Origin: Eledone cirrhosa
Lineage: Eukaryota
Direction: 5' to 3'
Assembly: GCA_964016885.1 (NCBI GenBank)
Contig: OZ024741.1
Span: forward strand, 123,938,001 to 124,002,000
Length of the DNA: 64,000 nt
The position numbers were made by a program, and so were the translations under genes. Within the stretch, counting starts at the first letter, position 1. Every line of letters begins with the position of its first letter. This document shows positions 35,188-45,764 of this stretch, piece by piece. The notes under the pieces were generated by a model, which was given only the letters and a program-made list of their open reading frames with translations, was not told where the DNA came from and made no database searches.

Positions 35188-35648
35188 GTTAAAAGAATAG
35201 AGGTGTAACACACAAGTTATTATATATTGGTAAACGGAATAGAAAATCCTGACAAATTGTTCACAGTTGAAAAATGGTTTAATTAGGAATAAAAGAGTAT
35301 TAGTGATTGTATGGGTTAGTATTCAGTTGAGGTTTTAAGTTTTCAAGTTTTTACCGGTTGCGCATTTCTAAATGCTTTTCAAAAATAATTTTGAGATAGA
35401 GTGTCCGTGCTGTTTGCTCTGATCAGAGCAAACAGATCAGAGCAGATCAGAGCAAACAGCACGGACACTCTATCTCAAAATTATTTTTGAAAAGCATTTA
35501 GAAATGCGCAACCGGTAAAAACTTGAAAACTTAAAACCTCAACTGAATACTAACCCATACAATCACTAATACTCTTTTATTCCTAATTAAACCATTTTTC
35601 AACTGTGAACAATTTTTCAGCATTTTCTATTCCGTTTACCAATATATA
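35188..35648. mobile_element. About 203-bp fold-back insert with stuttered apex
   Basis: Arms 35221-35424 and 35445-35648, tail 35188-35220, (TA)n on both sides. Confidence 0.9.
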
Positions 35649-36136
35649 TATATATATATATATATATATATATATATATATATATATATATATATATATA
35701 TATATATATATATATATATATATATATATATATATTTGTGTGTCTGTGCGTGTGCGTGTATATATATGTGTGATGGTTCTACTGCGAGGCACTCAACTGT
35801 ACATTTATAATGAGATTGTCTTAATTTTCTAGTCAGCAGATGGACTGAGCAGTCATGGTAGAATGCGTGAAGACACACCGCAGCCGGTAATGCCAAGATA
35901 CAGAAAGTTCAGGCGACATATCTGTGAATGTACCTACAAGACAAAATCGCGTCTGAACATCACCTGTGTGCACATGATCGTGCAATATTCAATGAAATGA
36001 TGGCACTCTTCTGTCTTCAGACGAGCAATGGCAATAAACATCCTCCGAGCCCTCCACGCGTGAACATAATATTACTGTGTATTTTTGCATCCCTGTTTGT
36101 TTTAATACCTTTATCATATATATATATATATATATA

Positions 36137-36806
36137 GTAATAATAATAAATTTGAAGACTAAAAGAGGGCTCGATAAGGATAAATATATATCAAATATAT
36201 AAGAACCGTAGAGCAAATATTTATTAAAATACCAGATTAAAGTTTAAGCAAATAATCGCTGCTATCACCCTTAACGGGATCTTCTGAAACTAACAAAGTC
36301 AATCTGTAAACGCAGAAGTGGATATTTCAAAAAACGTTGCAACCGGAGGAAGACAGGAAGACGATTCTTTGGTTCGTGGAAACGTTCCCTGGCAAAGAGC
36401 GGGAAAACCGAATATAATACGTCATTATTAGGAGCGGTGAAAAACAATTACGCGCAAAGACAGAACCACGTTTATGGTATAAAGGAAGTCGTAGACTAGT
36501 GTTCTCTTAGGTGGTTCATAGAGACGTTCTCTGGCAATGAACGGAAAAAACGAAGATAATACGTCATATGTGGAGCGTGGAGAACAATTGCACACAAAGA
36601 CAAAACCACGTTAATTGTATAGCTGAAGTCGTAGACTAAAATTCTAACTAGGAAACCGAATGAATCAACGCTTCAGAATTAAGAATAAAGTAAATAAAAT
36701 ACAATACAGAGGTAATAGAAATTAGATAAATACATACACGCGATCGCGTTAAGGGTAAAAGCAGCGATTCTTTGCTTAAACTTTAATCTGTTATTTTAAT
36801 AAATAT
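36137..36806. mobile_element. TA-flanked insert with 65-bp inverted arms and an internal 142-bp tandem duplication
   Basis: Arms 36217-36281 and 36742-36806; tail plus arm homologous to 1110-1232; direct units start at about 36371 and 36513. Confidence 0.8.
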
Positions 36807-36954
36807 ATATATATATATATATATATATATATATATATATATATATATATATATATATATATATATATATTTATATATATATATATATATATATAGTTCG
36901 GAATAACAGAAAACAAAGAAACAGACAAACGCAGGAATAAATGTTACAAATATT

Positions 36955-37132
36955 ATTGCAGTATTGGTAGAGGGTCGGACGCCATGCTTTGACGCATAGA
37001 GTTGCGGCCCTTGCCATTCTGAGTTCAAATCCCGCCGAAGTTAACTTTGCCTTTCATCCTTACGGGTTCGATAAAATAAAGTACCAGTAATACACTGGGT
37101 AATTACTGGCTTTGTGCCTAACGTAGAAACAA
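36955..37132 (+). mobile_element. Meta-domain SINE
   Basis: Near-full match to 1670-1852. Confidence 0.88.
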
Positions 37133-41689: not shown

Positions 41690-42997
41690 GTGGTTATTAC
41701 TATTACACCAAACAACCGAAAAACCACAACAACTATTACTACACGATCTATGACCAAGCACTCAAAATCTCATAATCTACCCAAAAATAACACCAAATAC
41801 AGCCACGGTAATTTACCAAATTCCACAAATAAGGATACTAACCATAGGAATTCTTCTAGAACACAACACAATAATATAAGTGATAATAAGAACTTAACTA
41901 CAAACCGCAAAAGAAACATGACATGGTACAACGCACGCTTCAACCTGCAAACTATTGGACAAATTCCCAAAAAGTTCTTTGAAATTCTACATAAACATTT
42001 TCCACCAAACCACAGATACCACCAAATATTTAACAAATATATTGTTAAATTCTCATACTCTACATCAAGCAATCTCCAGCAAAAAATAAGCAACTACAAC
42101 ATTTATAAACTTAAAAATAATATGACTACACCACCACAACATAATTTAAATAGGACTGCACATTTTAAAAAGGCAAATAATACAATCCTTCAACCTAGAA
42201 AACACAGCCACCCAAATCACCAATACAAAAACAACAGACCACAAAAGCACAATACAACCCTGGCACCAAACCACCCACAAAGCAACCTTCATTCTCCTGC
42301 TATCATTAATTACAATAGGGCGGTGGATTGGCAGTATCGATGGTCGGACGCCATGCTGTCCAGCATAGTTACGTCCCTTTACGATCAGAGTTCAAATCCC
42401 GCCGAGGTTGACTTTGCATTTCATCCTTACCGGGTCGATAAAATAAAGTATCAGTAATGCACTGGGTAATTGCTGGCCTTGTGCCTAAAGTAGAAACAAT
42501 TAATTACGATAGGAATAGCTCAAGGATTAATGAGAATAGTATAGGCACCCTCAACAACCATCTTACGTATGGCTGTAATTGCAGAAATAGAAGCATTTAC
42601 CCCTTAAATGGAAACTGTTTGATTAATAATGTAATATATAAATGCACTGTGTCTACTCGAGCCTCCAACAAAACATATATAGGATCTACATCAAACACAT
42701 TTAAGAAAAGATTTTACGTACACACTTGTAGTTTCAACAATACTAAACTAGCTAACACCACATCTTTAGCTGAAGCGGTAAATAATTATAAAAAGAAAAA
42801 AATAGATTTAGTTATCGTGGAACACCATTCTACAAAGAACTCCATATCTTGGGAACAGGAGCGAATGCAGATTATGTTCAGGGGAGATCTTGGAAATTAC
42901 TAAATCGAAGGACAATTTATTAAATAAAAGGCAAGAATTGATCATAGTTTGTAATCACCGTATACGAAGAACATTTAAATACTATAAACCTAATTAA
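41690..42997 (+). pseudogene. PLE ORF C-terminal half (thumb plus GIY-YIG endonuclease)
   Basis: RKRNMTWYN..KHFPPNH..IFNK..VKFSYS, CNCRN..PLNGNC..VIYKC..YIGSTSNTFKKRFYVH, CRLC, LLNKR; removing the 194-bp SINE plus TSD rejoins the frames; one later frameshift. Confidence 0.88.
42320..42498 (+). mobile_element. Meta-domain SINE inserted in the PLE ORF
   Basis: 15-bp TSD attaattac(a/g)atagg at 42305 and 42499. Confidence 0.92.
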
Positions 42998-44361
42998 ATA
43001 CTATACACCTAATTAAATATTCGAAATAGCAACTCACTATAATTCTATATAAAGTAACATTTATTAGTACCTCTTTCCTCTAATTATATGCATTCATGCT
43101 TATTTATATTTTTTACCTTTTAATGTTTTAGCTTCTTTAGGTTTATGCGTTAATGACTAAAGGCAACAAGGTACACAACCACCCGTAATTGTATGAGTAA
43201 ATATATATCTAATTATGATATGGAAATATATTTATGTGTGTGTATATATATATAAATATATATTTATGTATGTGTATATGTCTATGTATATATGTATAGG
43301 TATGTGTGTGTGTGTATGCGTATATATATATATATGTGTGTGTGTTTGTGTGTGTGTATATGTGAGTATAGGTGTATGAGTCTTTATATATGAGTGTGTG
43401 TACATGTATGAGGAGTGAACATATACACACATATATATATATATGTGTGTGTGTGTATATATATATATATATATATATATATATATATGTATATGTATAT
43501 ATATAAATATATATATATATATATATATATATATATGTATATATATATATGTATGTATATGTGTGATTATATATATATATATATGTATATATGTCGGTAT
43601 AGGTGTGTGTGTGTGGATATAGATATGTATGGATATGTATGTATATGATTATGTGCATACGTGTAAATGTGTATTTAGGTTTGCATCTATTTGTGCGTAT
43701 GTATATTTTGGTTGGATATCAATATAACCGTACCTCTCTCTATATATAGTGTGGGTATATGCACTTTGTAATGTATGAAATGTATGTGTTTTAATTATGC
43801 CAACAAGTATTTATCTGAGTTTGATTATTTATGCATAAACATACTTGATATTATTTTAGAGCGTATCGATAAAATAAAGTACCAGTAATGTAATGGTAAT
43901 TGCTGGCCTTGTGGCTAAAGTAGAAACAATTATTTTAGAGCGTATCATATGCTATATTATGCAATTTACCACACAGTACTATATTGTGTTGTTTAAGTTG
44001 TATATTATCGCATTACTATATTTCATTATCTTATTATAATTTTCATCTTTTAATATACTAACTTACCTAGCGATAACCTTAATTTATATTCACCTAAAAA
44101 CTCAATACAACACTAATCACCATTTATTTTGACATTCTTTTTAATTTCACTATACCAGATACATTCAACTATCAGTTTGACAATCCCTTTCTCCTAATAG
44201 ATTTGTATGCCAATTCTACTATTAACACCATTCAACCATTCCTTTCAAAGGGTCATGACCTCAACTAAAGTGTATTACTTTTCATCTTAACACCATATGA
44301 AAAAAACAATTTGATTCGTTAGTTCTTCAACTACCTCCAAATAACGACATGATACTACTAA

Positions 44362-45318
44362 TCTATATATATAAAACTGAGGTTGTCTGTCTGTCTATCG
44401 ATTTTTGGCACACATCTCCTCTTAGAATCTCTCACGGAATTGCACCGAAATTGCTATACTTGTACATTGAGCCCTAGCGAAGACATCGGAAAAAAATATT
44501 TCAAATTGACCCGCCCTATCTGACGAAATCGAATATAATGTATCGATTTTTGAGCGTAAGTGATCAGTTATTTCTCTTTGTTCTGTTTACATTGAGCGTC
44601 TGCGTGCAAAAATAAAAAAAATTACGCTGGCTTTCTCAGCGTTTAAAATGACTTTAACACAATACACGAACAGTTGTCGAGCCAGCAAAACTTTGACCTG
44701 CAAAATTCATCAGTTCGAACACTAAACTTCCGTTTTGCTTCATTTCCATTTAAAAGCCTTTTAAAACAATATTTTTACTTGAAAACAAGTCTATTTAAAG
44801 ACTACGTAAAACAAGCAAATATTTCGTAAAAAAAAAGCAAAATTATATAAGTTTATTTAAAATATATGTATCTGTAAATTTCGTTAGGCGTGCAGACAGA
44901 CAGTCGTGCAGAGAGGTGATATACGCGTGCAGACAGATAGTCGTGCAGAGAGGTGATATAGGCGTGCAGACAGATAGTCGTGCAGAGAGGTGATATAGGC
45001 GTGCAGACAGACATAACTGATAATTTGGTTACGCTAATGTTTTTCTCTGCGTTGCAGTGTTTACATTTTCGATCTTTGTTAATAAATAACCAGTGCAGTT
45101 TCTATCCCCAGCATCCTTTTTTGTTATAACATTCGGGTTATCGTTATGTTTTCTTAACTTCATAAGGCATATTGTTGGTTGAGGGAATATTAATCAAAAA
45201 CACCACATGCAAGTCTGCACAGTAGACACTACAGTTTTTAAGCCAAGAAAGAAACTTAACATTGTAACTTTAACGCAGCTACTGAGCGACCCCGAGCAAC
45301 GCCGGGCTTTACTGCTAG
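44362..45318 (+). mobile_element. Non-autonomous Helitron
   Basis: 5' TCTATATATATAAAA, 3' hairpin cccgagcaacgccggg (45291-45306) then CTAG, inserted between A and T with no TSD; empty site in the opposite arm near 41129. Confidence 0.92.
44886..45012 (+). repeat. 37-bp minisatellite inside the Helitron (about 3.4 copies)
   Basis: Unit aggcgtgcagacagatagtcgtgcagagaggtgatat. Confidence 0.92.
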
Positions 45319-45764
45319 TTCTGAATAAAATTATTATTGCTTTTGAAAACAGCTGGTGATATGCATGTAAGTAAATATTCTCTTTATCTGATATTTTGTA
45401 ACTAACCTTACATAGATCAATAACGGAGAAGCTACAATGTATTATCATCATCTAGAAACGATCGTAAAGTAGTGAAGTATATCTCTAATGACTTTATTTT
45501 TTTATTTCATTGTTTTAACTTATATATATATATATATATATATATATATATATATATATATATATATATATATATATATATATATATATATATATATATA
45601 TATATATATATATATATATATATATATATATATATATATATATATATATATATATATATATATATATATATATATATATATATATATATATATATATATA
45701 TATATATATATATATATATATATATATATATATTGATATATATATCAATATATATATATATGAA

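What the first reader, a model, noticed from the sequence alone, without database searches (positions are those of the whole stretch)
35480..45472. Same variant core TTGAAAA replaces CUGANGA in three unrelated pLTR families
HHR geometry is kept but the core reads TTGAAAA: attgctt TTGAAAA...GAAA cgatcg TA aag(c/t)agt (both arms, 41.0 and 45.4 kb); tatt TTGAAAA tttgg...ccaat GAAA cggtcg TA aata (7.8 kb; TTGAAAG at 27.7 kb); TTGAAAA gcattt/aaatgc GCAA ccgg TA (35.4/35.5 kb). C3-G8 is a Watson-Crick pair in HHRs, so U3-A8 is a compensatory change rather than random decay. These may be attenuated ribozymes.
Basis: partly seen in the sequence, partly recalled or inferred. Interest (0 to 1): 0.7.

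Follow-up and report, generated by a model that had tools for sequence, protein, structure and literature searches.

The report
U3-A8 hammerheads in Penelope-like element ends
Three abundant jumping-gene families in this animal genome carry a hammerhead RNA motif whose core C-G pair is replaced by an already published U-A pair; the swap likely arose separately in each lineage, and the motifs are predicted to cut weakly or not at all, which makes the need for cutting testable.

Summary
The motifs are real and lie in the ends (pLTRs) of Penelope-like elements (PLEs). U3-A8 is fixed in each family: U3 in 623 of 626 copies of A and 1,126 of 1,133 of B, TTGAAAA in 44 of 48 of C, and no C3-G8 copy seen. 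Positions 3 and 8 covary between families (16 C-G, one a tie; 5 U-A; 0 mismatched). A and B are both Hydra-clade, so not unrelated, but each groups with C3-G8 families and one shared origin is rejected (p-AU 0.0002). C is Neptune/Nematis-type. The variant is published, including the same UUGAAAA core in Schistosoma PLEs, and U3-A8 is reported active, so the swap alone does not show attenuation. Likelier brakes, all untested: U3 can pair with cleavage-site A17 (predicted in A; mirror of the known C3-G17 trap), B has a weak helix I, and C has A13C with a 3-bp helix I yet amplified recently. The 27.7-kb copy is broken (A9G, U16.1C). The scan found U3-A8 hammerheads before on other DNA of this genome. 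New members of a known kind; interest 0.35.

The parts
45334..45475 (+). Family A type I hammerhead, right arm: helix I 9 bp, U3 45343, A8 45348, 105-nt helix II rod 45350-45454, GAAA 45455-45458, palindromic helix III ACGATCGT, A17 45466
40956..41097 (-). Family A hammerhead, inverted left arm: U3 41088, A8 41083, G12 40976, A17 40965
40812..41684 (-). Inverted 5' arm of the family A insertion, ending in the long tail next to (TA)n
42574..42994 (+). Broken GIY-YIG endonuclease of family A (Hydra-type; the CxCx5C linker is intact in other copies and decayed here)
43782..45520 (+). 3' pLTR arm of family A, interrupted by an insertion, ending 58 nt after A17 in (TA)n
44362..45318 (.). Insertion with TC...CTAG ends and a subterminal hairpin between A and T (Helitron-like; label recalled), 24 nt upstream of U3
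7766..7868 (-). Family B hammerhead: helix I 4 bp, U3 7864, A8 7859, U.U at the base of a 76-nt helix II, GAAA, helix III ACGGTCGT, A17 7770
8532..8843 (-). Family B endonuclease fragment upstream of the 7.8-kb hammerhead
27721..27821 (+). Decayed family B hammerhead: U3 27725, A8 27730, A9G 27731, U16.1C 27816
26720..27166 (+). Family B endonuclease (CNCHLPETC linker) upstream of the 27.7-kb copy
35227..35642 (.). Family C inverted pLTR pair (96% palindrome) in (TA)n; left arm has a tail about 39 nt longer
35484..35520 (+). Family C hammerhead-derived motif: U3 35487, A8 35492, helix II GCATT/AATGC, G12-C13-A14 at 35508-35510 (A13C), helix III ACCGGT, A17 35517, helix I 3 bp
35349..35385 (-). 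Mirror copy of the family C motif (U3 35382, A17 35352)
679..714 (+). Older family C subfamily copy, TCGAAAA and GCAA
59832..59897 (-). Canonical C3-G8 hammerhead of another family (internal comparator; others at 49461, 7070 on - and a decayed one at 39328 on +)

Best explanation
The motifs are hammerhead sequences in the ends of three abundant Penelope-like retrotransposon families, each fixed for U3-A8 in place of C3-G8; the swap keeps the core base pair, likely arose separately in each lineage, and the RNAs are predicted to cut slowly (A, B) or not at all (C). Shown: family-wide fixation; position downstream of PLE endonuclease genes; paired change of positions 3 and 8 between families; a C3-G8 sister (A') of family A with compensated helix I; insertion ends at two fixed sites 53-185 nt beyond the cleavage site. 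Inferred: (1) two copies pair through the palindromic helix III, as proposed for PLE hammerheads, to form the active fold. (2) In a master element one transition broke the 3-8 pair and a second restored it; selection favours a paired core but not specifically C-G. (3) Because A, B, C and D all cut after A17, U3 can pair with A17 on the end of helix I and compete with U3-A8, the mirror image of the known C3-G17 trap; this would slow cleavage, most clearly in A. (4) C has further lost A13 and most of helix I and is likely silent. (5) Genomic copies run across the cleavage site, so they were likely copied from uncut or re-ligated RNA; slow cutting would therefore cost little.
For: Fixation: A 626 flank-matched copies, 3 not U3 (all C3-A8), 0 C3-G8, 98 of the first 100 U3-A8. 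B 1,133 copies, 7 not U3 among those with A7, 0 C3-G8, 97 of the first 100 U3-A8. C 44 of 48 TTGAAAA and 48 of 48 GCAA. Between families: 21 clusters of 2 or more copies in 1.99 Mb, 16 C-G, 5 U-A, 0 mismatched majority; 11 and 4 among those with a copy in 800 kb of unselected DNA (Fisher p 4.9e-5 and 7e-4). Sister A': 5,026 matches, 27 of 31 CTGAAGA, linked to its endonuclease at 6 of 6 loci. A versus A': 9 of 9 other core positions identical, helix II 54 of 105 identical, 59 of 59 cells paired and 3 pairs changed on both sides, including 3-8. Tree: A with A' 99/96; B inside a 98/95 clade with two C3-G8 families; A+B clade in 0 of 200 bootstraps, p-AU 0.000225. Dimer fold of A is about 10 kcal/mol below two monomers and forms helix III; U3-A17 probability 0.79 and 0.86 in the two A copies. 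G17 slows cleavage at least 300-fold in minimal and 8- to 100-fold in extended hammerheads, attributed to C3-G17 (PMC3884650 Discussion). Hammerhead mutants did not affect insertion in vitro for an anole PLE (PMC11167929 passage).
Against: No cleavage was measured and no rate for U3-A8 was seen. U3-A8 is called active in vitro. The trap is predicted only for A: probability 0.03 for the 7.8-kb B copy, 0.00 for C, 0.01 for D; the 0.89 for the 27.7-kb B copy is in a decayed copy. A nearest-neighbour model pairs U3-A17 whenever helix I forms and cannot see the tertiary U3-A8 pair. A17 is neither avoided nor enriched with U3 (3 of 5 U-A against 9 of 16 C-G clusters). Helix I duplexes of B and C are unfavourable (+1.1 and +2.4 kcal/mol), so B may not fold. 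The clusters are related, so the Fisher values overstate independence; one C-G cluster of three was a tie (C-G, A-G, U-G); the descriptor missed A' and C. The tree uses 142 columns, and the links of the B-side C3-G8 hammerheads to their endonucleases rest on one locus each. The count (302) on the A/A' alignment uses only 4 rows of 2 families and 7 of 500 shuffles matched it.
Confidence: 0.65

Rival explanations
1. U3-A8 is a near-neutral equivalent of C3-G8: A, B and D are as active as other dimeric PLE hammerheads and nothing is attenuated; only C is damaged.
For: Covariation to U3-A8 occurs in nature and such ribozymes were active in vitro (PMC3088659 section 8). No mismatched family among 21 clusters means the pair is kept. 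A17 is not avoided with U3. A keeps 9 of 9 other core positions and a compensated helix I.
Against: U3-A17 is predicted at 0.79-0.86 in A, and the matching C3-G17 pair costs 8- to 300-fold. The published PLE-linked UUGAAAA example has U17, not A17. B has a 4-bp helix I with unfavourable energy.
Confidence: 0.22
2. The motifs no longer cut; the hammerhead-shaped fold is kept as a structural signal (protein binding, RNA start or reverse-transcription landmark), and U3-A8 reflects AT-biased drift in a fold that only needs pairing.
For: C amplified to 97-99% identical copies with A13C fixed in two subfamilies. No copy of A, A', B or C began within 4 nt of the cleavage site (0 of 103, 46, 47, 69; biased sample). 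17 of 46 A' and 16 of 103 A matches begin at the 5' edge of helix I. Window is 67% AT. Catalytic mutants insert normally in vitro.
Against: The 3-8 pair is a tertiary pair of the active conformation; its double change between A and A' while helix II diverged to 51% is what catalysis-type selection predicts. D keeps a full core in 40 of 43 copies.
Confidence: 0.1
3. Splicing controls the family A hammerhead: GTAAGT...CTAAC...TAG inside helix II (45367-45415) is an intron whose removal or retention switches the ribozyme.
For: Textbook-looking donor, branch point and acceptor in order; A' has GTATGT and the same TACATAG; PLE pLTRs are known to hold introns near the hammerhead.
Against: The donor G is changed in 45 flank-matched copies, including apparent subfamilies; 0 of 30 such loci lack the segment precisely; the signals lie in a paired rod; of 18 long helix II segments only 3 have a donor-like word.
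Confidence: 0.03

Closest known systems
U3-A8 minimal hammerheads in pLTRs of Schistosoma mansoni Cercyon PLEs (Cervera and de la Pena 2014, PMC4209133; parts 1-2 of 4 and passages of supplement file 2 read)
   Same: Type I hammerhead in a PLE pLTR, U3-A8 found as a covariation (about 1,300 hits), the same UUGAAAA core in S. mansoni(4), a C3-G8 look-alike in S. japonicum, extra nucleotide after A9, palindromic helix III for dimers.
   Different: Here in Hydra-clade and Neptune/Nematis-type elements of another animal; 6-nt palindromic loop III; helix II of 75-107 nt in A and B; cleavage-site A17 (U17 in the published row); A13C in family C.
Hammerheads of Hydra-clade PLEs (Craig et al. 2021, PMC8557442; section 11, passages, supplement parts 1-2 read)
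   Same: Near the 3' end of (TA)n-inserted elements with RWK, DKT and CxCx5C motifs; U.U mismatch at the base of helix II is common.
   Different: All listed Hydra hammerheads have C3-G8 and a short helix II (found with a canonical descriptor).
Natural U3-A8 core variants (Perreault et al. 2011, PMC3088659; section 8 and passages read)
   Same: C3-G8 covaries to U3-A8; U10.1-U11.1 mismatch tolerated.
   Different: Here the change can be placed on a tree of related element families within one genome.
C3-G17 trap in G17 hammerheads (PMC3884650; Introduction passages and Discussion read)
   Same: Position 3 can pair with position 17 on the end of helix I and compete with the 3-8 pair.
   Different: Here it would be a natural U3-A17 pair, weaker and untested.

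Membership tests
Type I hammerhead ribozyme (PLE dimeric form) | Core C3U4G5A6N7G8A9 and G12A13A14, or a compensated 3-8 pair | tested here: met
   A and B: UUGAAAA and GAAA; U3-A8 is a published compensated form
Type I hammerhead ribozyme (PLE dimeric form) | Same core test for family C | tested here: not met
   GCAA (A13C) in 48 of 48 copies; sister D has GAAA in 41 of 43. C is hammerhead-derived, not a full-core member
Type I hammerhead ribozyme (PLE dimeric form) | A15.1-U16.1 pair and H17 | tested here: met
   GUA in A, B, C; broken in the single 27.7-kb copy
Type I hammerhead ribozyme (PLE dimeric form) | Helices I and II form | tested here: inconclusive
   A: helix I 9 bp (-8.5 kcal/mol), helix II z -3.7. 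B: helix II z -3.9 but helix I +1.1. C: helix I +2.4
Type I hammerhead ribozyme (PLE dimeric form) | Palindromic helix III allowing a dimer | tested here: met
   Self-duplex -10.0 (A), -5.8 (B), -8.3 (C/D) kcal/mol; formed in the dimer fold of A and C but not of B
Type I hammerhead ribozyme (PLE dimeric form) | Site-specific self-cleavage after position 17 | not testable with these tools
   needs an assay
Penelope-like element (EN+) | ORF with RT and C-terminal GIY-YIG upstream of the pLTR | tested here: met
   C: L306 has hammerhead-ORF-hammerhead, unit 4,868 nt, Pfam RVT_1 and GIY-YIG above cut-off; A: GIY-YIG at window 42442-42903; the A' and B ORFs gave no Pfam hit but match A by tblastn
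Penelope-like element (EN+) | Tandem or inverted pLTRs with a tail at one end, in microsatellites | tested here: met
Hydra clade (families A, A', B) | CxCx5C linker, DKT, RWK, no CCHH, (TA)n target | tested here: met
   B: CNCHLPETC, ADKT, RWK. A: CNCRNRSIC, SDKT read from L091, RWR in place of RWK. Features from PMC8557442 section 11
Hydra clade (families A, A', B) | Placement with reference Hydra RTs in a tree | not tested
Neptune or Nematis clade (families C, D) | DKG, CX2-5CxxC linker, CCHH in the endonuclease | tested here: inconclusive
   ADKG, CDRPNCGIC and CSGC with downstream histidines are present, which excludes Hydra; Neptune versus Nematis was not resolved

The most novel reading that the evidence does not exclude
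PLE lineages repeatedly evolve a built-in brake: the change to U3-A8 with an A17 cleavage site creates a U3-A17 self-trap that keeps the template RNA uncut until protein or a partner copy releases it, and family C is the end point where cutting is lost while the element still spreads. A, A', B, C and D would then be a natural series for testing whether PLE hammerheads need to cut in vivo.
Probability: 0.2. Interest if true: 0.62.

Novelty: new member of a known kind. Interest (0 to 1): 0.35.

Why it matters
The role of hammerheads in PLEs is open: they are conserved, yet catalytic mutants still insert in vitro. Sister pairs in one genome that differ at 3-8 (A and A') or at 13 (C and D) are ready-made natural controls for that question. 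The survey also shows that descriptors fixed on CUGANGA and a short helix II miss about a quarter of the hammerhead families here (4 of 15 in unselected DNA). The core variant itself is not new.

Tried and rejected
Rfam scan of the window: no hammerhead family among the 150 of 321 matches shown, which were mostly microsatellite look-alikes of microRNAs. Intron in helix II of A: not supported. RNA evidence: no RNA holder listed. Three contig sets of unrecorded kind from one sample showed no GT-AG joint and no other letter at positions 3 or 8 of family A at 1% or more; these say nothing about expression. A DNA search for A' returned nothing; a pattern then found 5,026 matches. A Hydra endonuclease upstream of one D copy was a chance neighbour; contiguous sequence links D to a C-like endonuclease, 52% identical to that of C. 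Family E could not be tied to an ORF. Recurring mismatched cores in a relaxed scan (for example TTGAAGA...GCAA at 36152) failed the stricter descriptor; the 36152 one lies on the strand opposite that repeat's own hammerhead-like motif. Start sites at the cleavage position: none for A, A', B, C, but the loci were chosen with hammerhead-containing queries, so this is weak; the D tally was swamped by (TA)n matches and was dropped. A four-way alignment of A, A', C, D was mis-specified for D and not used. Przybilski and Hammann 2007 and Lunse et al. 2016 were not available, so no measured U3-A8 rate was seen. Literature searches: hammerhead with U3-A8 gave 1 paper, U3A8 0, U3-A17 0, C3U and G8A 1 with no rate and 0 with rescue terms, octopus with hammerhead ribozyme 4 listed, none on this. 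These cover only the held library.
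Full report
Observation. I call them family A (45343 +, 41088 -), B (7864 -, 27725 +) and C (35487 +, 35382 -, and an older copy at 682 +). A has 9 bp of helix I, a 105-nt helix II and the palindrome ACGATCGT as helix III. B has 4 bp, 76 nt and ACGGTCGT. C has 3 bp, 14 nt, ACCGGT and GCAA in place of GAAA. The 27.7-kb copy has two extra core changes, A9G and U16.1C. Canonical C3-G8 hammerheads of other families lie at 59889, 49461 and 7070. One descriptor with positions 3 and 8 left free gave 26 C-G, 8 U-A and 7 other hits in 800 kb of unselected DNA; shuffles gave means of 0, 0.7 and 3.0. 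Helix II of A and B folds better than 200 of 200 shuffles. C does not stand out by folding.

Family state. The genome is about 3.0 Gb; earlier scan notes call it octopus-type, which I did not test. With both positions free, family A gives 626 flank-matched copies; 98 of the first 100 are U3-A8, and only 3 lack U3, all C3-A8. B gives 1,133 copies, 97 of the first 100 U3-A8, and 7 lack U3 among those with A7, none C3-G8. In the fetched DNA, C has TTGAAAA in 44 of 48 copies and GCAA in 48 of 48. Within families the changes are single, as expected of copies that decay after insertion.

What carries them. All three lie downstream of PLE genes. A and B follow endonucleases with a CxCx5C linker, and their ORFs have DKT and RWK or RWR: the Hydra-clade signature in PMC8557442 section 11. 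C has a full tandem unit at L306 (hammerhead, ORF with Pfam RVT_1 and GIY-YIG, hammerhead; 4,868 nt) with DKG and a CX4CxxC linker, so it is Neptune/Nematis-type. Insertions sit in (TA)n, often as inverted pairs, and end at two fixed sites after position 17: +58 and +184 for A, +53 to +60 and about +185 for B, +131 and about +165 for C. This matches the PLE tail described in the passages read of PMC8557442 and PMC11167929.

Covariation between families. In 1.99 Mb of fetched DNA the descriptor gave 21 clusters of two or more copies: 16 with C-G (one a three-way tie), 5 with U-A, none with a mismatched majority. Restricted to clusters with a copy in the unselected 800 kb, the count is 11 and 4 (Fisher p 4.9e-5 and 7e-4, but the families are kin). 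The descriptor missed C and A'. A' is a 5,026-copy family with CTGAAGA in 27 of 31 copies, the same helix III and helix II base as A, and a 59% identical endonuclease linked at 6 of 6 loci. Between A and A', 9 of 9 other core positions are identical while helix II is 54 of 105 identical; all 59 cells of the named pairs are paired and three pairs, including 3-8, change on both sides (4 rows only). In a tree of 23 Hydra-type endonucleases (23 of 26 clusters; three broken B copies left out), A joins A' at 99/96 and B sits in a 98/95 clade with two C3-G8 families; A plus B is a clade in 0 of 200 bootstraps and is rejected at p-AU 0.000225. All other labelled rows have G8 and, apart from one decayed copy, C3, so two gains is the simplest reading; the tree has no outgroup and several labels rest on one locus. 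C shares U3-A8 with its sister D, which has intact GAAA. Two more U3-A8 families, with C17, turned up. So 'three unrelated families' is better put as two clades and at least three likely origins.

How it likely works. Established: G12 is the base and the 2'-OH of nucleotide 8 the acid (PMC6155905 passage); 3-8 is a Watson-Crick pair of the active fold (PMC3884650); PLE hammerheads are proposed to act as dimers through a palindromic helix III and cut weakly in vitro (PMC4209133). Here the palindromes give self-duplexes of -10.0, -5.8 and -8.3 kcal/mol, and the dimer of A folds about 10 kcal/mol below two monomers. U3-A8 keeps the pair and is described as active (PMC3088659 section 8), so the swap alone does not show attenuation. 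A more specific brake is inferred. A, B, C and D cut after A17, so U3 can pair with A17 and extend helix I, as C3 does with G17; that trap costs at least 300-fold in minimal and 8- to 100-fold in extended hammerheads. The model gives U3-A17 0.79 and 0.86 in the two A copies but 0.03, 0.00 and 0.01 for the intact B copy, C and D, whose helix I is weak. A17 goes with 3 of 5 U-A and 9 of 16 C-G clusters, so there is no sign of selection for or against the trap. That A13C cripples C follows from the core consensus and recalled mutagenesis; I found no measured value. C nonetheless has copies 97-99% alike. Since insertions span the cleavage site, they were likely copied from uncut or re-ligated RNA, in line with catalytic mutants inserting normally in vitro.

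A lead that failed. Helix II of A holds GTAAGT, CTAAC and TAG in intron order. The donor G is changed in 45 copies, none of 30 such loci lacks the segment precisely, the words lie in a paired rod, and only 3 of 18 long helix II segments have a donor-like word. No RNA run was available to settle it.

Comparison and novelty. U3-A8 in PLE hammerheads is published for Schistosoma mansoni, about 1,300 hits, and the supplement lists a PLE-linked row with the same UUGAAAA core and U17. Published Hydra hammerheads are all C3-G8 with short helix II. Earlier notes of this scan report U3-A8 hammerheads, long-armed Hydra hammerheads and a C3-G8/U3-A8 pair elsewhere in this genome; two of them report mismatched phases, which my sample did not show and I could not test genome-wide. 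What this study adds is the tree test for separate origins, the C/D pair differing at position 13, and the U3-A17 hypothesis, for which one search of the held library found no paper.

Papers seen: PMC4209133 parts 1-2 of 4 and supplement passages; PMC8557442 passages, section 11 and supplement parts 1-2; PMC11167929 part 1 of 4 and passages; PMC3088659 section 8, passages and a supplement search without hits; PMC3884650 passages and Discussion; PMC6155905, PMC6765202 and PMC7151607 passages; bioRxiv 10.64898/2026.07.22.740005 part 1 of 5. Przybilski and Hammann 2007 and Lunse et al. 2016 were seen only as citations.

Verdict. Observation confirmed; compensatory reading supported between families; attenuation plausible but untested and probably not caused by U3-A8 alone. 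New members of a known kind; interest 0.35.

Noticed in passing
window 36236-36290 (-): Another repeat family has a hammerhead-like motif with core CAGAAGA (U4A), GAAA and a monomeric helix III; 14 of 16 pattern-matched copies read CAGAAGA/GAAA, the window copy has GATA. It does not fold better than shuffles.
   Followed up: partly
window 44362-45318; L002, L003: A Helitron-like insertion (label recalled) sits at the same place upstream of the family A hammerhead at two other loci on other contigs, while the window's left arm lacks it; the composite may have been retrotransposed.
   Followed up: partly
family A' loci L251-L280; family A loci L181-L210: 5' ends of copies cluster at the 5' edge of helix I: 17 of 46 A' matches and 16 of 103 A matches start within 15 nt upstream of position 3, suggesting an RNA start or RT stop there.
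   Followed up: partly
window 45350-45454; L101:6345-6459 and other loci: Long helix II rods (45-124 nt) are common in these families with either core pair; 17 of 18 scored z -2.3 or lower against shuffles.
   Followed up: partly
window 45367-45415: Splice-like GTAAGT, CTAAC, TAG inside helix II of family A; not supported by genomic tests, RNA untested.
   Followed up: yes
L231-L250 (D), L211-L230 (E), L311:6502 (F): Three more U3-A8 families: D (TTGAAAA, A17), E (TTGATAA, 12-nt helix III palindrome, C17) and F (TTGATAA, C17).
   Followed up: partly
window 36958-37136, 38253-38439, 42322-42506 and others: A 190-nt repeat (SINE-like; label recalled) with more than ten copies in the window; a 3' piece of it lies inside both arms of the family A insertion (41557-41623, 43866-43940).
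   Followed up: no
window 35055-35165, 9748-9887, 28482-28682: Further near-perfect palindromes next to (TA)n, probably inverted ends of other elements.
   Followed up: no
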